Virus record (IMG/VR): IMGVR_UViG_3300035180_000254
Reading direction: 5' to 3' (one strand)
Source: a virus
DNA: 64,000 bases
Position 1 is the first letter of the stretch. Each line of letters starts with the position of its first letter. A program made the position numbers and the translations under genes. Below, in pieces: positions 39,055-49,577 of this stretch. The notes under the pieces were generated by a model. That model saw nothing but the letters and a program-made list of their open reading frames with translations, made no database searches and was not told the origin of the DNA.

Positions 39055-39076
39055 TAGTCTTATTTAGATTTTAGAT
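39055..39076 (-). promoter_or_regulatory. AT-rich 22-bp element
   Basis: rc = ATCTAAAATCTAAATAAGACTA. Lies between the HNH stop and the next gene's start. Confidence 0.45.
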
Positions 39077-39675
39077 TTGACGGCTAATTCAAACGAAAGC
39101 TTTTGCACATTCATTCGGTGATAAGTTCGCTGGTATGGAATTTTGAGTTCTCGGCACCACTGCGCCAAAGACTGCTTTTTTCCTCGGTATGCAATAAGCC
39201 TGACGTTGCACCTGTTGTTCTGCACTGCACACGAGGACCATACGCAATTGGCTTTTGAGTACCCTAAGTTTCCGTCGACGCGGTCAATAGACATGCCCAC
39301 AGGACGCTCGCCCATATCGCGAAAGAACGCTTCGAATGAGTCCCACTCAGGTGCCACAGCAATACCGCGTCCACCGTAGTTGGGGTATGAAATGTGGTTA
39401 GGGTTGGAGCAGCGTGCGCGCATTTCCTGCCAGGTCCTGTATGTCCGGCTTACACCCTTCATGTGTGACGCATGTCCGTGGGCGGGAGAACCTATGCGCC
39501 ATATGCACCCGCAGGAAGTCGTCCGCCCTTGACGCAGCGCGTCACCAGTTACCACTTTAAGCCCGCCGCACTTGCACTTGCATACCCAGGCAGCTTTGCC
39601 ACCCTCAGGCAATGCAGGTGCCATGACAGTTAGCTTCCCATAGGCGTTACCCAGCTCGTCTTTAGCCATATACAC
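39064..39675 (-). CDS. free-standing HNH-type homing endonuclease (paralog of the intein-nested ORF)
   Basis: 203 aa. C-x-C-x-C-GG, SCGC, RCSNPNHISYPNYGGRGIAV..W..FEAFFRDMG.RP.G.SIDRVDGNLGYSKANC.W motifs. Visibly lower GC than its neighbours. Confidence 0.8.
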   Translation of the reverse strand: MYMAKDELGNAYGKLTVMAPALPEGGKAAWVCKCKCGGLKVVTGDALRQGRTTSCGCIWRIGSPAHGHASHMKGVSRTYRTWQEMRARCSNPNHISYPNYGGRGIAVAPEWDSFEAFFRDMGERPVGMSIDRVDGNLGYSKANCVWSSCAVQNNRCNVRLIAYRGKKQSLAQWCRELKIPYQRTYHRMNVQKLSFELAVKSKI

Positions 39676-39699: not shown

Positions 39700-40575
39700 T
39701 TATAAATCTAATTTAGACCTTAGACCTTTAAACGAAGGGTGGCGAGGTAGGTCCTTGCGCCCGATGGGGAAGTGGTTGTACGAGACCAGCGCACCGATTG
39801 GAGGGTTTATCCACATCTGTATCCGGTCGGCTTCAGTAAATCCGGTCCCAATATGAAACTCGACCCCACTGTTTATGTCGCGTACGTGAAGAGCGCCCAT
39901 GCGTCCCTTACCGACTTTGTTTTCTTTGTGGCTGCTACGTTTGGTGCGGCCCAGCTCGTTGGTGGTAGCTTCGTTGCCGTTGTGCATCTCTTCGACGACG
40001 CCGAGAACGACGCATTCGTCGGTGAGCATGCGCTTCACCTTCAGAAGGAAGCCCTCCTTGGCGGTGCTGCGGCCGAACTTGTAGGGCGAGTCAGGGTGGC
40101 GCAGGATCACGCCCTCATGGCCAGCCTCTAACGCATTGGCTTCGAACTTATTCAGAGATTCGATGTCGTGGACGGCCACTTGCTCCAATGCCATCAGACG
40201 AACACCCGCGCCACTGACCGTGCGCAGCATGCGCTTGTAGCGGTCGTAGAAGGGGCGGTCTTCGACCTTGTCGAACACGTAGAAGTTCCAGTCCACGTCC
40301 TTCTTATTCTCGGTCATGACACCACTAACCGTGTCACGGTAGCAAGTGGGGCTGTTGGTCGGTCCGACGATCAGCTCGCCGTCCAGACCCTCAAACGAGG
40401 CCTTGCTGAGCACCGCGCTGATGTGCATGTTCGGGATAGGCTTGAGCGAACGGCTCAGGAGCTGGCCTTTGCGCACGATGGCGCGGATACCGTCGAGCTT
40501 GATTGACGCGAAATACCCAGCACTCCAGTCCAGCATGTCAAGGTCAGCGTTAGTTGCGAGCATCGGACGAAACAT
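39700..40575 (-). CDS. ATP-dependent DNA ligase
   Basis: 291 aa. Adenylation motif I SIKLDGIR. Size and motif order match phage ATP ligases. Confidence 0.9.
   Translation of the reverse strand: MFRPMLATNADLDMLDWSAGYFASIKLDGIRAIVRKGQLLSRSLKPIPNMHISAVLSKASFEGLDGELIVGPTNSPTCYRDTVSGVMTENKKDVDWNFYVFDKVEDRPFYDRYKRMLRTVSGAGVRLMALEQVAVHDIESLNKFEANALEAGHEGVILRHPDSPYKFGRSTAKEGFLLKVKRMLTDECVVLGVVEEMHNGNEATTNELGRTKRSSHKENKVGKGRMGALHVRDINSGVEFHIGTGFTEADRIQMWINPPIGALVSYNHFPIGRKDLPRHPSFKGLRSKLDL
39704..39725 (-). promoter_or_regulatory. AT-rich 22-bp element overlapping the ligase 3' end
   Basis: rc = GTCTAAGGTCTAAATTAGATTT. Encodes the ligase C-terminus LRSKLDL* and lies upstream of the HNH gene. Confidence 0.45.
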
Positions 40576-45820: not shown

Positions 45821-46378
45821 CTATTTGCCGGTAAGGTGTTTCCACGTCTTACCGTTCTTTATGTTTTGGACCGACGACTGAGTCAGCCCATAGGCGTTAG
45901 CAATGACGCGAGTCAGCCTTATGTCGTCGAGAATCGCCATCACTTGCTGTTCGTTGAGCTTGGCCGAAAGATTGGCCTCGCCCTTAGCACCGTATGCACG
46001 GCCTTTTTCTCGGAGGTCGCGCATGTTGTCTTGATGCGTGCCGAGTCGTAGATGCTCAGGATTCACGCACCCTGGGTTGTCGCACTTGTGCAGAACGTGC
46101 ATGCCTCTCGGAATTGGCCCATTGTGCATAACCCATGACCCACGGTGAGCATTTTTCTCGCCGTGGGCGGTCCATATCCCATACCCGCAAGTTACTGTTG
46201 CCCCGATCCATAACCAGCAGTTGGTTATTGAGTCGACCTGGTAACGTTCGCGGAACGGTACTCCGCGCAAGTTCGCTGATTTAAGCGGGTCGCCATATTT
46301 CATAAACGCGCGGTAGTGTTTTTTACAGTACCCGCGACCGACCGACGGCTCGCCGCAAACAGAGCAGGGTGTACGCAT
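45821..46378 (-). CDS. HNH homing endonuclease
   Basis: 185 aa. HKCDNPGCVNPEHLRLGTHQDNMRD HNH core plus a C-terminal HTH-like tail. AAAGGAG SD. Lower GC. Directly downstream of the DNA polymerase. Confidence 0.85.
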   Translation of the reverse strand: MRTPCSVCGEPSVGRGYCKKHYRAFMKYGDPLKSANLRGVPFRERYQVDSITNCWLWIGATVTCGYGIWTAHGEKNAHRGSWVMHNGPIPRGMHVLHKCDNPGCVNPEHLRLGTHQDNMRDLREKGRAYGAKGEANLSAKLNEQQVMAILDDIRLTRVIANAYGLTQSSVQNIKNGKTWKHLTGK

Positions 46379-46396: not shown

Positions 46397-46436
46397 CCTC
46401 TATTATATAGTAACGATTATTTACTATAGTTAGAGG
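46397..46436 (-). other. AT-rich imperfect hairpin enclosing the polymerase stop codon
   Basis: CCTCTA..TATAGTAA-CGATTAT-TTACTATA..TAGAGG. Confidence 0.3.
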
Positions 46437-49377
46437 CATGCCCTCCTTCGCATGCGAGCGGGATGTCGGGGCACCAGCTGGGCGCTGTGCTCATGACCTT
46501 GGTCATCAGCGCGAAGCACTGCTTGGCCTGAGCGGTCTTGGGCAGCGCCACAGCTTCGTCGTGTGTGGTCATGACGATGCGGTACTTCTTGCGAATCTGC
46601 AGCATCTGCCAGGCCACGATGATTCGCGCCAGGGCCTGCACGATGTTCTCGCACAGCAGCCCGCCGTAAATCTTCTTGCGCATGTCGCCGGACTTGTAGG
46701 ACCACTCGTCCCAGCCCTTGTCACTGACGGCCTTGCGCAGCTCGGGGTACTTGAGCGACATGCCGTTAGGGAGCCAGATGGTCTCCTTCTCCCATGTGAT
46801 CGGGCCATGACGACCGGACCGGCCAGCGGCCATGTCTTCGATGATCTTGGCACAGATGTCCCAGCCGCCTTTGATCTTGTGATTCGTTCGGCGGTACGTG
46901 TTCACGATCTGCACGCAGCGGTCCAGCTCGAAGAAGATCGGCGGGCCACCGAGGGCACCCTTGGCCAGGGTCATCTGGAACTTCGGTGCGCCCATCTGGA
47001 AACCAAGTCCGAGAACGCAGTTATGAACGATGACCGGGCCGTCATCAGACATGACTGTGAAACAATGGTTAGGCCCTGCGTTTGCGAGATCGTAAGTTTG
47101 CGTTGTCTGCTTCGAGATCACGAATGCGTTGTTCGAGGTCTTCGATTCGTCGCTTGTTTCCGGTGTTGACAGACTTAGTGGCGAATCTGACGTTGCCTGG
47201 GCAGTACCCGCTGTTGTTGTCGATTCGATCAAACTCAAGCTCAGGTACATCCCATCCAGGTAATGTCTGGACATACCGCAGAAACTCTGCTCCGTCGTTG
47301 CACCAGCCAGGATGAACTGCGATGCCGCGTCGCCCATAGTGCTTATACGAGGCATTGTTCGGGTTACTACAGCGCGCAATTGCTGATGACAAGCGGTTAA
47401 GCAGGCGAGTGCGATGCTCGTCATTCGGCATAGCATCCCTGTAGACCCAGTAGCGTTTTGCGCTTGCCGCAATTTTTGCGCAAGCGTTGCATCGCGTAGA
47501 GCGTCCTGCCTTAAGGCTGCTGACATAGACCATAGACTCGGCCCCGCAAGAGCACTGGCAGACAGGGCGATACCCCCACGGCTTGCCGTCTTTTGACGTG
47601 TAATGCTCCCACCGTACGACGGTAAGTTCGCCGAACTTAGTGCCGACCGGAAAAGGGAACGGTCGGTAAGGACCTCTTGCCACTCCAGCCACCCACGTTC
47701 CGTCAGGATTTCGTGGTCCGGCGTGGCGGATATTCCCCGGTATGACAGGGTCGTCCTCACTCCTTGCTTTACTAGCCCATCGTGCGTTACCCATGATTTT
47801 CCATCCCATAGCAAATCGTTAGATCGTATTTGGGGTATAGACTTAAGACCATGGTTTGTCAATACGATGGTGTCTGGTCCGAGGCAGACCTTGCCCACGA
47901 AGCGTTCGGTCTTGTCTTCCTTGGTGATCGGCCGGCCGTAGATCAGCGTGGCGAAGTTGCAGTAGGCGTCGCTACCGGTGCCAGCGTCAGCCGCACGGAA
48001 CGCAGCCATGAGGTCATCCTGACCCCACAGCCAGCCGTTCACGCGGGCTTCGATCTGGCCGCTGTCCACCACGCACATCTGGTAGCCCTTGGGTGCCAGG
48101 ATGGACAGGCGCAGCTCACCACCACGGGTGAGGTTCTGCATGTTCATCTTGTTGTTGCCGCCCCACCGGCCCGTGTGAGCGCGGTAGTAGGCATAGCCCA
48201 CCGGCAGACTCATGCCGTTGGCACCAGCCTTCAGGAAGCGTTCTGCGCGCGTAATATTCGTCGTGCTTTTAACCGCAAGACGAGCATCGACCAGCGAGCG
48301 GATACGATCTTGCTTCGCCGAAATCTTAGGTATGTCCTTGACTTTGTTCGGGTCAAGCGCACCGCGCCAGAGGTCAATGTTCTCGGGGAGCGACGTGAAC
48401 TCGGCGTCATCCTTTGCGAACGCGTACGACCATTTATCCTCTTCAGCGACAAGGGCCTTCTCCTCTTTGCTCAGCTTGATATACGCCTTGCTGGGCTTCA
48501 TGGGCGGGTCGATGCCCTCGGCCCGCAGCAAGTCAGCGAACTTCTCGTTGGAGCCGATGACGCGCTTGATGATCAGCATGTCACGCTCCTCACCGGTCAG
48601 CGCGCGCTCAGCCGTAGTCTTGAGCACGGTTTTGTCGGCGTAGTAGGGCTTGGGGTCCAGCACTGCATAGAACTTGCGCTTGCGTTCGGCCACCTCGCGC
48701 TCGTACTCTTTCTGCACGCGCGGGATGTCCACCTTCAGCACCGGGTCGCAGAACATGCGGATGGTCATGTCCACCAGGTCCAGCTCGTCGGCAGGGAACT
48801 TGGCGTGCATCTCCTTGAAGATGGCGTGCGTCAGGTCCACGTCTTGGGCGCAGTAGGGCGTCACCGCCTTGACCAGCTTCTGATCCCAGTCGCCCACGCC
48901 CTTAGTGGTCTCCAGCACGCCGTCGAGCTTGGAGCCCTTGCCGTAGAACTGGGCCACCTCGTCCAGGCTCGCACCAATTTCATTGCTGTGCAGGCCACGG
49001 GCCATGCTCAGCGTGTCGTAGTACTGGAACGGGACGATCTTGTAGACGTGCGAGAGGATGAAGCCGTCGAAGGCCGTGTTGTGGCAGAGCAGGCTGTGCG
49101 TGGCCCAGTTAATGCTCTGCAACGCGGCCATGATGCGTAGCTGCCCGGTGTACACCTTGGTCGGTTTGTTGCCGATCTTGATGCCCACCATCTGTGCCTT
49201 GAAGCGCTTATCACGTACGTACTCAGACGTGCTGAGTTTGGACAGGGTGTAGTCGCTATCCCAATAGCTTTCGAAGTCAATAGTTACGAGGCGGTTCCAG
49301 TCAACGATCCCAGGCGTGATGTCCGGGCGGTTAATGATCACCTGTGCCTTGCGGCGTATTGCGTCTCCCCATCCCAT
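46417..49377 (-). CDS. family A DNA polymerase with 3'-5' exonuclease domain, interrupted by an intein
   Basis: Exo motifs TIDFES, HNTAFDGF, YCAQDVDL. Pol motif A VVDSGQIEARV, motif B split as RFVGKV|intein|CVLGLGFQMG, motif C MTTHDE. Start set to the ATG at 49377 (TGATG overlap, GGAGG SD). Confidence 0.9.
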   Translation of the reverse strand: MGWGDAIRRKAQVIINRPDITPGIVDWNRLVTIDFESYWDSDYTLSKLSTSEYVRDKRFKAQMVGIKIGNKPTKVYTGQLRIMAALQSINWATHSLLCHNTAFDGFILSHVYKIVPFQYYDTLSMARGLHSNEIGASLDEVAQFYGKGSKLDGVLETTKGVGDWDQKLVKAVTPYCAQDVDLTHAIFKEMHAKFPADELDLVDMTIRMFCDPVLKVDIPRVQKEYEREVAERKRKFYAVLDPKPYYADKTVLKTTAERALTGEERDMLIIKRVIGSNEKFADLLRAEGIDPPMKPSKAYIKLSKEEKALVAEEDKWSYAFAKDDAEFTSLPENIDLWRGALDPNKVKDIPKISAKQDRIRSLVDARLAVKSTTNITRAERFLKAGANGMSLPVGYAYYRAHTGRWGGNNKMNMQNLTRGGELRLSILAPKGYQMCVVDSGQIEARVNGWLWGQDDLMAAFRAADAGTGSDAYCNFATLIYGRPITKEDKTERFVGKVCLGPDTIVLTNHGLKSIPQIRSNDLLWDGKSWVTHDGLVKQGVRTTLSYRGISATPDHEILTERGWLEWQEVLTDRSLFRSALSSANLPSYGGSITRQKTASRGGIALSASALAGPSLWSMSAALRQDALRDATLAQKLRQAQNATGSTGMLCRMTSIALACLTACHQQLRAVVTRTMPRISTMGDAASQFILAGATTEQSFCGMSRHYLDGMYLSLSLIESTTTAGTAQATSDSPLSLSTPETSDESKTSNNAFVISKQTTQTYDLANAGPNHCFTVMSDDGPVIVHNCVLGLGFQMGAPKFQMTLAKGALGGPPIFFELDRCVQIVNTYRRTNHKIKGGWDICAKIIEDMAAGRSGRHGPITWEKETIWLPNGMSLKYPELRKAVSDKGWDEWSYKSGDMRKKIYGGLLCENIVQALARIIVAWQMLQIRKKYRIVMTTHDEAVALPKTAQAKQCFALMTKVMSTAPSWCPDIPLACEGGHASNYSK
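47020..47886 (-). mobile_element. intein (289 aa) in polymerase motif B
   Basis: Starts CLGPDTIVL (block A). ATPDHEILT (block B). Ends YDLANAGPNHCFTVMSDDGPVIVHN followed by +1 Cys. The central 190 aa in this frame is low-complexity. Confidence 0.85.
47069..47809 (-). CDS. HNH-type homing endonuclease ORF nested out of frame inside the intein
   Basis: 246 codons on the same strand in a different frame. Residues about 55-230 are paralogous to 39064..39675 (GELTVV, CQCSCG, RCNAC, RCSNPNNASYKHYGRRGIAVHPGW, FDRIDNNSGYCPGN). Lower GC. In-frame GTGs at 47692 and 47683. Confidence 0.65.
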   Translation of the reverse strand: MGWKIMGNARWASKARSEDDPVIPGNIRHAGPRNPDGTWVAGVARGPYRPFPFPVGTKFGELTVVRWEHYTSKDGKPWGYRPVCQCSCGAESMVYVSSLKAGRSTRCNACAKIAASAKRYWVYRDAMPNDEHRTRLLNRLSSAIARCSNPNNASYKHYGRRGIAVHPGWCNDGAEFLRYVQTLPGWDVPELEFDRIDNNSGYCPGNVRFATKSVNTGNKRRIEDLEQRIRDLEADNANLRSRKRRA

Positions 49378-49577
49378 CAGTTGTCCTCCGGCATGCGCGG
49401 GCAGGGTGCCCAGTGAGTCCAGTAGCGGGACTTGCCGTCCCACTGACTGTAGACAGCCACACCGCCAATACCCAGGAGCTGCAGCTTCACGCCGCGCGGT
49501 GTGTCAAGGCCGATCTTTTGCCAGTAGTAGTCTGTTGACACAGCGACCGTCTGGTCCTTGTTGAGGGTGTGGCTCAT
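49377..49577 (-). CDS. hypothetical protein (66 aa)
   Basis: ORF track entry. Overlapping stop/start junctions on both sides. Confidence 0.5.
   Translation of the reverse strand: MSHTLNKDQTVAVSTDYYWQKIGLDTPRGVKLQLLGIGGVAVYSQWDGKSRYWTHWAPCPRMPEDN

What the first reader, a model, noticed from the sequence alone, without database searches (positions are those of the whole stretch)
47020..47886. DNA polymerase intein whose homing endonuclease is encoded out of frame inside the intein
What the sequence shows:
- The polymerase ORF reads ...KTERFVGKV|CLGPDTIVLTNHG...ATPDHEILT...[about 190 aa of S/A/T/L-rich low complexity]...YDLANAGPNHCFTVMSDDGPVIVHN|CVLGLGFQMG.
- The two flanks rebuild family-A polymerase motif B.
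- Intein blocks A, B, F and G are present, but the intein frame contains no endonuclease motif.
- A 246-codon ORF on the same strand in another frame (47069-47809) covers the centre of the intein. From about residue 55 it is clearly paralogous to the free-standing HNH-type endonuclease at 39064-39675. Shared motifs are G(E/K)LTV, CxCxCG, RC(S)NPN, YxxYGGRGIxV, and DR(I/V)DxNxGY.
- Local GC drops, yet the polymerase frame has no stop codon across all about 245 overlapped codons. Unbiased sequence would give about one stop per 21 codons.

Inference: this is a dual-coding arrangement. The intein linker would be the out-of-frame translation of a free-standing-type homing endonuclease gene, which would be translated separately. 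In-frame GTGs at 47692 and 47683 lie just after the N-terminal splicing blocks. I know of fractured genes with split inteins plus free-standing endonuclease genes, but not of this continuous overprinted form.
Basis: partly seen in the sequence, partly recalled or inferred. Interest (0 to 1): 0.85.

Follow-up and report, generated by a model that had tools for sequence, protein, structure and literature searches.

The report
Polymerase intein with overprinted endonuclease gene
A phage DNA polymerase gene carries a self-splicing intein whose middle is also read in another frame as a separate, selected endonuclease-like gene; this rare layout was first described in 2025-26 and is here found widely in phages of Gram-negative bacteria.

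Summary
Everything lies on the minus strand. The family-A polymerase ORF (46417-49443) contains a 289-aa intein (47020-47886). A 241-246-codon ORF (47069-47794/47809) sits inside it in the +2 frame.

The polymerase-frame insert folds as a mini-intein with a 163-residue disordered middle. The nested ORF folds confidently and belongs to a phage family annotated HNH/AP2 homing endonuclease. A free-standing paralog lies at 39064-39675.

Twenty-four unique relatives with mapped intein boundaries, from isolates and metagenomes, keep the same layout. Selection switches frame along the overlap: polymerase-frame pN/pS is 1.11 in the linker, and nested-frame pN/pS is 0.21 in its core. The polymerase frame has no stops in all 16 representatives, whereas 50 free-standing homologs have 3-25. 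Intein-less alleles show the exact empty site. This is therefore neither an artefact nor chance.

It is not new in kind. Out-of-frame endonucleases in inteins were proposed in 1998 and described in 2025-26 for other genes and nuclease families. This polymerase/HNH-AP2-like family, which includes Salmonella Jerseyviruses, appears undescribed in the papers I could search.

Splicing, separate translation from a conserved ATG, and nuclease activity are all inferred. The canonical catalytic histidine of HNH enzymes is absent.

The parts
46417..49377 (-). Family-A DNA polymerase gene (precursor with intein). The probable start is the ATG at 49377-49375; the mechanical ORF runs up to a GTG at 49443.
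   Evidence: ORF (1). PHROG phrog_17 DNA polymerase, E 1.5e-60, and Pfam DNA_pol_A / DNA_pol_A_exo1. An identical 986-aa protein, P0124, starts at this ATG. GGAGG lies 7 nt upstream.
47887..49377 (-). N-extein, ending ...KTERFVGKV (first half of polymerase motif B).
   Evidence: (14). Intein-less homolog P0129 reads KTERFVGKVCVLGLGYQMG without interruption.
47020..47886 (-). Intein, 289 aa: Cys1 (TGC), block B TPDH, terminal HN (AAC), followed by +1 Cys.
   Evidence: Boundaries. A profile of 14 homologous inserts hits the Mtu RecA mini-intein at 4e-5 and the Neq polymerase split intein at 5e-4. The AF2 model's 42 best Foldseek PDB hits are all inteins or intein-like Hint domains, best E 4.6e-4.
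47614..47886 (-). N-terminal splicing domain of the intein (residues 1-91). Its last ~60 codons overlap the 5' end of the nested gene.
   Evidence: pLDDT 84-94 (73). Polymerase-frame pN/pS is 0.25-0.30 (72). Codon-position pattern follows the polymerase frame.
47125..47613 (-). Intein 'linker' (residues 92-254). In the polymerase frame it is a disordered S/A/T/L-rich read-through of the nested gene.
   Evidence: pLDDT 25-39 (73). For intein codons 81-271, polymerase-frame pN/pS is 1.11 with depressed pS. There are 0 stops where 1.7-8.2 are expected.
47020..47124 (-). C-terminal splicing domain (residues 255-289, blocks F and G). The nested gene's stop lies inside it.
   Evidence: pLDDT 65-91 (73). 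pN/pS is 0.13 for residues 272-289 (72).
47069..47794 (-). Nested gene in the +2 frame: 241 aa plus a TAA stop at 47069-47071. The product belongs to the phage HNH/AP2-annotated homing-endonuclease-like family. An earlier in-frame ATG at 47809 would give 246 aa.
   Evidence: (1, 89). PHROG phrog_374, E 2e-35 (7). AF2 mean pLDDT 84, and above 85 for most of residues 45-240 (55). There are 117 BFVD structural matches at E<=1e-3 (64). pN/pS is 0.21 for codons 51-241 (72).
47792..47794 (-). Conserved start codon of the nested gene. It overlaps the polymerase-frame Ser-Trp of the intein motif WDGxxWV.
   Evidence: ATG in 20 and GTG in 4 of 24 homologs at the same position (41, 82). All 7 homologs with Ser before the Trp use TCA, which creates the ATG.
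47800..47807 (-). Shine-Dalgarno-like GGGATGGA upstream of the nested start.
   Evidence: Anti-SD duplex energy upstream of the start averages -7.6 kcal/mol over 24 homologs, against a background of -2.8 +/- 2.8. The pattern is partly forced by the conserved W-D-G codons.
39064..39675 (-). Free-standing paralog of the nested gene (203 aa).
   Evidence: BLASTP 31% identity, E 1e-18 (6). PHROG phrog_374, E 2e-53 (7). It has 8 stops in the frame that stays open in the nested copy (32).

Best explanation
Shown
- A mobile intein sits in motif B of a phage family-A DNA polymerase gene.
- Its two ends encode an ordinary Hint splicing domain: Cys1, TPDH, and HN followed by Cys.
- Its middle is not an in-frame endonuclease domain. 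That DNA is a separate gene, read in the +2 frame, for a folded 241-aa protein of a phage family annotated as HNH/AP2-type homing endonucleases.
- The polymerase frame across this gene yields a disordered tether of about 160 residues. Selection holds this tether only to contain no stop codon.
- The nested frame is under ordinary purifying selection.

Inferred
- The precursor is translated through the overlap and the intein splices itself out, restoring motif B (GKV-CVLGLG).
- Ribosomes also start internally on the same mRNA at the conserved ATG (47794), which follows a G-rich Shine-Dalgarno-like stretch, and make the nested protein.
- That protein cuts or nicks intein-less polymerase alleles during co-infection. 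Repair then copies intein and nested gene together (homing).
- The arrangement arose when a free-standing endonuclease gene entered a mini-intein. Copies survived only where the host frame stayed open.
For: Intein identity
- The boundary residues are canonical.
- A profile of the inserts matches solved mini-inteins.
- The AF2 model has ordered ends and a disordered middle. Its 42 best Foldseek PDB hits are all inteins or intein-like Hint domains.
- The intein-less allele P0129 shows the exact empty site (62).

The nested gene is real
- Family matches.
- A high-confidence fold with viral structural relatives.
- pN/pS of 0.21 in its core, against 1.11 for the polymerase frame over the same DNA.
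- Third-position variability follows the nested frame from about alignment column 53 onward, and the polymerase frame before that.

The polymerase frame is kept open
- 0 stops in 16/16 representatives, against 1.7-8.2 expected under synonymous permutation, with P(0) between 0 and 0.11 (44).
- 50 free-standing homologs have 3-25 stops, median 9 (44).

Conservation
- The same +2 layout is seen in Pseudomonas phage MR14, Salmonella Jerseyviruses, EBPR siphovirus 2, Vibrio phage 97.13, 19 IMG/VR loci and 5 close metagenomic relatives.

Start signals
- A conserved ATG/GTG and anti-SD complementarity.
- A nested-frame stop lies 1-21 codons upstream in 23/24 sequences, and there is no slippery heptamer.

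Mobility
- Intein-bearing and intein-less alleles coexist at 94-98.5% extein identity in Jerseyviruses.
- Among close relatives, the nested protein core is more conserved (81%) than the exteins (67%).
- Homologous inteins occupy several polymerase sites.
- In the overlap, GC3 is 0.59 in the nested frame and 0.55 in the polymerase frame. This resembles the free-standing paralog (0.57), not the exteins (0.82).

Repeated origin
- Other inteins in related polymerases carry same-family ORFs in the +1 frame.
- A 112-aa mini-intein of the same family has no insert.
Against: - No expression, splicing or cleavage data exist for any member.
- Pfam and NCBIfam give no HNH hit.
- Foldseek against the PDB finds no significant match for the nested protein, best E 0.24 (59).
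- The alignment to a bona fide HNH_3 motif is not significant, E 0.052 (60).
- In that alignment the first catalytic His position is D189, followed by an invariant R190.
- The start codon and SD-like stretch are partly dictated by the conserved intein motif W-D-G-x-x-W.
- No internal promoter-like site was found, so expression depends on internal initiation on the polymerase mRNA.
Confidence: 0.8

Rival explanations
1. Assembly or sequencing artefact: two compensating indels hide a canonical intein with an in-frame endonuclease domain.
For: One old Jerseyvirus-like record (L012) does contain indels. They place the intein N-domain in frame with the nested protein.
Against: The same frame relation holds in 24 unique sequences from independent isolates and metagenomes, at 34-84% nested-protein identity. 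None of the 80 IMG/VR loci has the family in frame with a long host ORF; all nested-frame ORFs are <=315 aa. In L012 the polymerase itself is broken. The frame-specific selection pattern switches within the intein.
Confidence: 0.01
2. The nested ORF is a dead relic. The element is now effectively a mini-intein with a long junk linker, and the ORF stays open only by chance or by hitch-hiking.
For: There is no direct evidence of expression. The canonical HNH catalytic His is absent. No promoter-like site lies inside.
Against: The ORF is intact in all 24 unique sequences with mapped intein boundaries. pN/pS is 0.21 with near-saturated synonymous change. The AF2 fold is high-confidence. Start codon and SD-like element are conserved. 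The core is more conserved than the host exteins.
Confidence: 0.06
3. The nested frame is reached by -1 ribosomal frameshifting from the polymerase frame. This would give a polymerase-N/intein-N/endonuclease fusion rather than a separately initiated protein.
For: The +2 frame is the same as the -1 frame, the commonest direction of programmed frameshifting.
Against: There is no conserved X XXY YYZ heptamer in the first 110 intein codons of 24 sequences. Nested-frame stops lie 1-21 codons upstream of the conserved start in 23/24 (86). ATG/GTG and the SD-like stretch are conserved. The first ~40 residues of the nested protein are disordered and unconstrained.
Confidence: 0.04
4. The nested gene is expressed, but it is a DNA-binding protein rather than a nuclease. 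It might be an AP2-like sequence-specific binder that recruits another nuclease, or a regulator. Mobility of the element would then depend on a different enzyme, for example the free-standing HNH_3 gene next to the polymerase.
For: There is no Pfam, NCBIfam or PDB support for an HNH active site. D189 and invariant R190 occupy the place of the catalytic His (47, 60). Several structural relatives are annotated AP2/ERF or 'DNA-binding domain protein'. A true HNH_3 gene lies directly downstream at 45821-46378 (3).
Against: PHROG families matching the protein are annotated HNH endonuclease. The C-terminal motif DR.D.N.GY.PGN.RF.....N..N lines up with the HNH_3 motif. The family behaves like free-standing homing endonuclease genes, being sporadic and multi-copy. 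The adjacent HNH_3 gene is missing in several relatives that keep the intein and nested gene.
Confidence: 0.12

Closest known systems
Actinobacteriophage inteins with an endonuclease VII-like homing endonuclease in reading frame 3 (Gosselin, Arsenault & Gogarten, bioRxiv 10.1101/2025.01.02.630785)
   Same: A continuous host ORF. An intein whose central part is structureless in the host frame. A same-strand ORF in frame 3 (+2) encodes a folded nuclease-family protein related to free-standing phage genes. The proposed origin is invasion of an intein by a free-standing endonuclease gene.
   Different: - The nuclease family differs: endonuclease VII-like, matched to PDB 1E7D, versus an HNH/AP2-annotated family with no PDB match here.
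- The hosts are actinophages, and the host genes are different ones.
[quoted passage not shown] Here the start codon and about 60 codons lie inside the structured N-terminal splicing domain, and the stop lies in block F.
- No frame-by-frame selection analysis was seen in the parts of that paper that I read.
Cyanobacterial dnaX intein with a +2-frame LAGLIDADG endonuclease (Phillips, DeSimone & Gogarten, bioRxiv 10.64898/2026.09.14.751524; first proposed by Gorbalenya 1998, 'Non-canonical inteins', as cited there)
   Same: A +2 ORF. A disordered in-frame middle. A Shine-Dalgarno motif upstream. High omega in the host frame and low omega in the +2 frame. Intein-bearing and intein-less alleles coexist.
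   Different: A cellular gene (DNA polymerase III gamma/tau) rather than a phage family-A polymerase. A LAGLIDADG nuclease. A single insertion site. Here homologous elements occupy several sites, and related nested genes occur in both +1 and +2 frames.
ShiLan insertion: out-of-frame HNH endonuclease inside a mycobacteriophage DNA methylase gene (Arsenault et al. 2025, PMC11855218)
   Same: A hidden same-strand endonuclease-family ORF inside a host ORF that stays free of stops.
   Different: ShiLan has no detectable splicing domain and apparently remains in the host protein as a loop. Here the overlap is embedded in a recognisable intein that can remove it.
Fractured genes with split inteins and a free-standing endonuclease gene between the halves (Dassa et al. 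2009, PMC2677866)
   Same: A free-standing-type endonuclease gene is associated with an intein at the usual endonuclease insertion point. Both support the 'splicing first, endonuclease later' origin.
   Different: There the host gene is broken into two ORFs and the intein works in trans. Here the host ORF is continuous in all 24 sequences whose intein boundaries were mapped.
Canonical bifunctional inteins (for example PI-SceI) and in-frame HNH inteins
   Same: A Hint splicing domain interrupted at the same topological point by endonuclease-coding DNA. The distribution is sporadic, as expected for homing.
   Different: In those, the endonuclease is a domain of the same polypeptide. Here it is a different polypeptide from a different frame.

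Membership tests
Intein (Hint-domain protein-splicing element, class 1) | Cys/Ser/Thr as the first residue and Cys/Ser/Thr as the first C-extein residue | tested here: met
   Cys1 (TGC 47886-47884) and +1 Cys (TGC 47019-47017). The same holds in all 20 relatives with both boundaries mapped; one has +1 Ser (39).
Intein (Hint-domain protein-splicing element, class 1) | Block B T-x-x-H and a C-terminal His-Asn | tested here: met
   TPDH at intein residues 55-58 and VIVHN at the end. T55, H58, H288 and N289 are invariant in 14 homologs.
Intein (Hint-domain protein-splicing element, class 1) | Hint fold | tested here: met
   The profile hits Mtu RecA, Neq polymerase and Spl DnaX inteins. The AF2 model's 42 best Foldseek PDB hits are all inteins or intein-like Hint domains: probability 1.0 for the top 24, rmsd ~2-3 A over 75-90 residues. 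Pfam and NCBIfam intein models are only sub-threshold.
Intein (Hint-domain protein-splicing element, class 1) | Precise in-frame insertion relative to an uninterrupted homolog, in a conserved motif | tested here: met
   P0129, P0130, P0151 and P0180 read FVGKVCVLGLG(F/Y)QMG, which is polymerase motif B. Jerseyvirus alleles differ by exactly 897 nt (93).
Intein (Hint-domain protein-splicing element, class 1) | Protein splicing activity | not testable with these tools
   Inferred from an essential host gene kept open and from conserved catalytic residues.
[quoted passage not shown] | An endonuclease-family ORF inside the intein, on the same strand, in another frame | tested here: met
   +2 frame. 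Family matches.
[quoted passage not shown] | The host-frame translation of the overlap is unstructured, while the alternative-frame product is folded | tested here: met
   pLDDT 25-39 for intein residues 92-254 (73). pLDDT is above 85 for most of nested-protein residues 45-240 (55).
[quoted passage not shown] | Purifying selection on the alternative frame, relaxed selection on the host frame | tested here: met
   pN/pS 0.21 versus 1.11 (72). Codon-position profile. Stop avoidance.
[quoted passage not shown] | Independent translation of the nested gene | tested here: inconclusive
   The conserved ATG/GTG, SD-like stretch and upstream stops are consistent with it. The signals overlap a conserved protein motif, and there are no expression data.
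HNH (His-Me finger) endonuclease | Match to curated HNH models or solved HNH structures | tested here: not met
   No Pfam or NCBIfam hit. The PDB profile search finds nothing relevant. Foldseek PDB best E is 0.24, with PacI only at E 0.56. Only PHROG names and BFVD annotations say HNH.
HNH (His-Me finger) endonuclease | Catalytic His at the start of the beta-beta-alpha motif, plus Asn and a metal ligand | tested here: inconclusive
   hhalign puts FDRIDNN..PGNVRF..N over LHKCDNP..PEHLRL..N, but at E 0.052 (60). The His position is D189, followed by invariant R190; N201 and N210 are conserved.
Fractured gene / split intein with a free-standing endonuclease (Dassa 2009) | Host gene split into two ORFs, each ending or starting with an intein half | tested here: not met
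   A single uninterrupted ORF here and in all 24 relatives whose intein boundaries were mapped.
Self-splicing intron carrying an endonuclease gene | Group I/II intron RNA structure; host frame need not stay open | tested here: not met
   No Rfam match at E<=1 in 46800-48100 (81). The host frame is open and intein motifs are present.
Family-A DNA polymerase (host gene) | 3'-5' exonuclease and polymerase domains, with motif B restored on removing the insert | tested here: met
   Pfam DNA_pol_A_exo1 above its cut-off and DNA_pol_A just below it. PHROG phrog_17, E 1.5e-60 (7). Intein-less homologs of 696-716 aa (58, 62).

The most novel reading that the evidence does not exclude
Free-standing endonuclease genes of this one family have entered mini-inteins repeatedly and independently. 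They land in either alternative frame (+2 here; +1 in a different intein at the same site, and in inteins at another polymerase site).

These overprinted composites would be long-lived, actively homing units, not short-lived accidents. They would be living intermediates on the route from mini-intein plus free-standing endonuclease to the classical bifunctional intein. They occur in culturable Salmonella phages, where the whole pathway could be tested by genetics: internal initiation, splicing through a 160-residue junk tether, and homing.
Probability: 0.55. Interest if true: 0.7.

Novelty: new member of a known kind. Interest (0 to 1): 0.6.

Why it matters
How inteins acquired their endonucleases is a long-standing question. 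The favoured 'splicing domain first, endonuclease invades later' model predicts intermediates in which a free-standing endonuclease gene sits inside an intein without yet being fused to it. Such cases were thought extremely rare and were only documented in 2025-26, for actinophages and a cyanobacterial gene.

This locus shows the architecture is widespread in phages of Proteobacteria. It has been stable over deep divergence (34-53% nested-protein identity among distant relatives). It recurs in both alternative frames and moves between polymerase sites.

It also gives unusually clean evidence of two selection regimes on one stretch of DNA. One regime is ordinary purifying selection on the nested frame. 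The other is bare 'no stop codon' selection on the host frame.

Practical consequences:
- More than a hundred GenBank Jerseyvirus records annotate only an 'intein-containing DNA polymerase precursor' and miss the nested gene.
- Nearly identical intein-bearing and intein-less Salmonella phages exist, so homing can be tested directly.

Tried and rejected
Searches and tests that gave no signal
- megablast of the polymerase gene against GenBank phages found no match (5). The window's phage has no close cultured relative. Its exteins are only ~36% identical to Pseudomonas phages KPP25/phiR18 (83).
- Pfam and NCBIfam on both frames gave no intein hit above threshold and no HNH hit (3, 35, 53).
- A PDB sequence-profile search with the nested family found nothing relevant.
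- Foldseek of the nested model against the PDB found nothing significant.
- hhalign of the nested family against the window's own HNH_3 protein aligned the expected motif but was not significant (60).
- The word-indexed protein search with the intein alone gave only 3 fragments (54). I therefore used the whole polymerase to collect an alignment (58).
- A sigma-70 promoter scan inside the gene found none.
- The Rfam scan found nothing, which rejects the intron reading (81).
- A slippery-heptamer scan found nothing conserved, which argues against frameshifting (86).

Side issues
- L012 looked like an in-frame intein-endonuclease fusion. It is a broken polymerase in an old record, most likely through sequencing errors (80).

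Searches not used
- The metagenome-contig scan, the genome-contig scan and the search of protein representatives. The comparative set was already sufficient.

Full report
1. What is at the coordinates

All features are on the minus strand. The longest ORF, 46417-49443 (1008 aa), is a family-A DNA polymerase. It matches PHROG phrog_17 at E 1.5e-60 and the Pfam 3'-5' exonuclease and DNA_pol_A models. Its real start is probably the ATG at 49377. That ATG has GGAGG 7 nt upstream and is the start of an identical 986-aa database protein.

The protein reads ...KTERFVGKV|CLGPDTIV...VIVHN|CVLGLGFQMG. Inside it, in the +2 frame, lies the ORF 47069-47809 (246 codons).

Across the insert, the polymerase frame has no stop and the third frame is riddled with stops. 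The nested product is 31% identical (E 1e-18) to the free-standing gene product at 39064-39675. GC falls from 0.60 in the exteins to 0.54 in the insert.

2. The polymerase-frame insert is an intein with a structureless middle

Curated intein models are only sub-threshold, but three other lines agree.
- A profile built from 14 homologous inserts hits solved mini-inteins. Mtu RecA scores 4e-5, the Neq polymerase split intein 5e-4 and Spl DnaX 0.055.
- An AlphaFold2 model built with 18 homologs has pLDDT 84-94 for residues 1-91, 25-39 for residues 92-254, and 65-91 for residues 255-289.
- The model's 42 best Foldseek matches in the PDB are all inteins or intein-like Hint domains. The best is the Ssp DnaB mini-intein at 4.6e-4, followed by gp41-1, Spl DnaX, Mtu RecA and Npu DnaE.

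Cys1, T55-x-x-H58, H288-N289 and the +1 Cys are present and conserved. Intein-less homologs of 696-716 aa read FVGKVCVLGLG(F/Y)QMG without interruption, so the insertion is precise and lies in motif B. No Rfam family matches the region, so it is not an intron.

3. The nested ORF is a real gene

It matches PHROG families annotated HNH endonuclease, with phrog_374 at E 2e-35. It has 123 database homologs at up to 84% identity.

With 76 of them as an alignment, AlphaFold2 gives mean pLDDT 84. Residues 1-40 are disordered and residues 45-240 are mostly above 85.

Foldseek against predicted viral structures gives 117 matches at E<=1e-3. These are annotated HNH endonuclease, AP2/ERF domain protein, or HTH homing endonuclease. 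The best is an 'uncharacterized protein' of Salmonella phage LPSE1 (247 aa, 44% identity), which matches the nested ORF of the Jerseyvirus polymerase in length and identity.

The nuclease class is not established.
- There is no Pfam, NCBIfam or PDB match.
- The alignment to the window's own HNH_3 protein places FDRIDNN..PGNVRF over LHKCDNP..PEHLRL, but it is not significant (E 0.052).
- In that alignment, the position of the catalytic His is D189, followed by an invariant R190.

4. The arrangement is conserved, not an accident of one assembly

A tblastn search of the nested protein against GenBank phages puts its best hits inside annotated polymerase genes. These belong to Pseudomonas phage MR14, many Salmonella Jerseyviruses ('intein-containing DNA polymerase precursor'), EBPR siphovirus 2 and Vibrio phage 97.13.

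In all four examined, the polymerase ORF is continuous. It carries a C...HN|C/S insert of 285-299 aa, and the homolog lies in the +2 frame.

In IMG/VR, 19 of the 20 best loci (34-53% identity) show the same nesting. The remaining ~60 loci (<=37% identity) are free-standing genes with many stops in both other frames. The exception among the 20 is L012 (section 8). No locus has the family in frame with a long ORF. Five close relatives from Logan, ENA and JGI assemblies (polymerases 61-72% identical to the window's) also share the layout.

5. Selection

Sixteen representatives were compared by nucleotide divergence at each codon position.
- In the first 25 nested codons, the most variable position is the polymerase frame's third position (0.64). 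The polymerase frame's second position varies least (0.36).
- From alignment column 53 onward, the most variable position is the nested frame's third position (0.60-0.67). The nested frame's second position varies least (0.24-0.46).

Nei-Gojobori estimates on six close relatives give the same picture.

| Frame | Region | pN/pS |
|---|---|---|
| Polymerase | N-extein | 0.42 |
| Polymerase | Intein codons 1-30 | 0.25 |
| Polymerase | Intein codons 31-80 | 0.30 |
| Polymerase | Intein codons 81-271 | 1.11 (pS depressed to 0.19) |
| Polymerase | Intein codons 272-289 | 0.13 |
| Polymerase | C-extein | 0.38 |
| Nested | Codons 1-50 | 1.29 |
| Nested | Codons 51-241 | 0.21 |

So each stretch of the overlap is constrained in one frame only, and the constrained frame switches about 50 codons into the nested gene.

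The only constraint visible on the polymerase frame in the linker is the absence of stops.
- In the window, redrawing codons from the phage's own usage gives 4.9 stops on average, with P(0) = 0.0004.
- In 16/16 representatives there are 0 stops. Synonymous permutation gives 1.7-8.2 expected, with P(0) between 0 and 0.11.
- Fifty free-standing homologs have 3-25 stops, median 9.
- Neither frame in the overlap has the exteins' GC3 of 0.82. The nested frame (0.59) resembles the free-standing paralog (0.57).

6. How the nested gene is probably expressed (inferred)

A start codon sits at the same place, +2-frame codon 30 of the intein, in 24/24 sequences. It is ATG in 20 and GTG in 4. It overlaps the intein motif W-D-G-x-x-W-V. 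In the window this is ATG 47794-47792.

Where the polymerase-frame residue before the Trp is Ser, all seven sequences use TCA, which creates the ATG.

The 16 nt upstream pair with the anti-Shine-Dalgarno sequence at -7.6 kcal/mol on average, against a background of -2.8 +/- 2.8. This is partly forced by the W-D-G codons.

A nested-frame stop lies 1-21 codons upstream in 23/24 sequences, and no -1 slippery heptamer is conserved. No sigma-70-like promoter lies inside the gene. Internal initiation on the polymerase mRNA is therefore the simplest reading.

7. Mobility

- Intein-less alleles exist next to intein-bearing ones. Among the window's relatives, P0129 is 86% identical over the N-extein.
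- In Jerseyviruses, alleles with and without the 897-nt insert coexist at 94-98.5% extein identity. CKT1, S100 and Shelanagig lack it; EnJE6, PVP-SE2 and Ent1 have it.
- Among the six close relatives, the nested protein core is more conserved (81%) than the exteins (67%).
- Homologous inteins with the nested gene sit at several polymerase sites. These include GK(V/A/T)|C, a site four residues downstream (GK..L(A/G)|CG), and a C-terminal site in L023.
- The host polymerases are very different from one another. The window's exteins are ~36% identical to those of KPP25-like phages and are unrelated at the DNA level to Jerseyviruses.

8. A recurrent theme

- Related polymerases carry a different intein at the same site (CVAEGELVLT...VFN|C). 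Its middle encodes a same-family ORF in the +1 frame: L092, 29% identity, E 2e-16.
- Inteins at another site (GGLL|C...) carry +1-frame ORFs. These are closest to the window's free-standing paralog: L093 at 35% identity, E 9e-35, and L050 at 39%, E 2e-36.
- L050 also has a 112-aa mini-intein of the same family with no insert.

Together these suggest repeated capture of free-standing genes by mini-inteins.

One record (L012) has indels that break the polymerase and fuse the intein N-domain to the nested frame. It is an old sequence, so I treat this as sequencing error.

9. Comparison with the literature

It is not.
- Gorbalenya (1998) proposed endonuclease homologs in alternative ORFs of inteins, as cited in bioRxiv 10.64898/2026.09.14.751524.
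- Gosselin, Arsenault and Gogarten (bioRxiv 10.1101/2025.01.02.630785) described actinophage inteins with an endonuclease VII-like gene in frame 3.
- Phillips, DeSimone and Gogarten (bioRxiv 10.64898/2026.09.14.751524) described a +2-frame LAGLIDADG gene in the cyanobacterial dnaX intein, with the same omega pattern.
- Arsenault et al. (PMC11855218) described an out-of-frame HNH in a methylase with no intein.

Four full-text searches found no description of this polymerase/HNH-AP2-like case. In the five Jerseyvirus and related GenBank records with annotation that I inspected, only the polymerase CDS is annotated.

Three things differ from the published cases.
- The nuclease family and the host gene.
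- The overlap reaches into the structured splicing domain at both ends.
- The element occurs in two frames and at several sites.

10. Verdict

Splicing, separate translation and nuclease activity remain inferred. The kind is known but rare and recent, so this is a new, widespread and experimentally tractable member.

Noticed in passing
window 45821-46378 (-): A free-standing HNH_3 endonuclease gene (Pfam E 9e-17) lies directly downstream of the polymerase. It is present in close relatives L085 and L087 and absent at that position in L086, L088, L089 and L090. It therefore looks like a second, independent mobile endonuclease gene at this locus.
   Followed up: partly
L003-L008, L010, L018, L021 versus window, L001, L002, L009, L013: Homologous inteins with the same nested gene sit at two polymerase sites only four residues apart: GKV|C-E-L-A-L-G and GKVSELA|C-G-F-G. 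In each case the intein lies just before the available Cys. This suggests site shifting tied to the position of the +1 nucleophile.
   Followed up: partly
P0136, P0141, P0147, P0154, P0164, P0179 (relatives of the window's polymerase): This polymerase family is an intein hot spot. Single proteins carry two or three inteins at up to five sites in all: LLAHN|C, YRAH|C, GKV|C, GGLL|C and others. One of them (in P0136, at YRAH|C) has a precomputed in-frame LAGLIDADG_3 Pfam hit. Protein length reaches 1639 aa.
   Followed up: partly
L050:1710-3971: One polymerase carries both a 112-aa mini-intein of the same family with no insert (CMAEDTGVLT...FFVHN|CGYG) and a second intein with a +1-frame nested gene. 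This gives a natural 'before' and 'after' pair in one gene.
   Followed up: partly
L012 (IMGVR_UViG_638275545_000001, 40.8 kb Jerseyvirus-like): Two indels break the polymerase and put the intein N-domain in frame with the nested protein. It is probably a set of sequencing errors in an old genome. If real, it would be a dead polymerase or a one-step route to an in-frame fusion.
   Followed up: partly
window 49375-49379 (-): The probable polymerase start ATG (49377) overlaps by one base the stop codon of the upstream 66-aa ORF (49377-49577). This suggests translational coupling. The mechanical ORF start at GTG 49443 is probably not used.
   Followed up: partly
window 39700-40575 (-): The gene next to the free-standing paralog contains a K-L-D-G-I-R motif typical of ATP-dependent DNA ligases. 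I read this by eye only and ran no family search. The endonuclease-family gene thus sits among replication genes, as free-standing homing endonuclease genes often do.
   Followed up: no
window 47072-47140 (-), nested protein residues ~217-239: The nested protein ends in a long predicted helix with a heptad-like pattern (EDLEQRIRDLEADNANLRSRKRRA). It had weak chance-level hits to coiled-coil or zipper peptides in the PDB profile search. It may be a dimerisation element.
   Followed up: no
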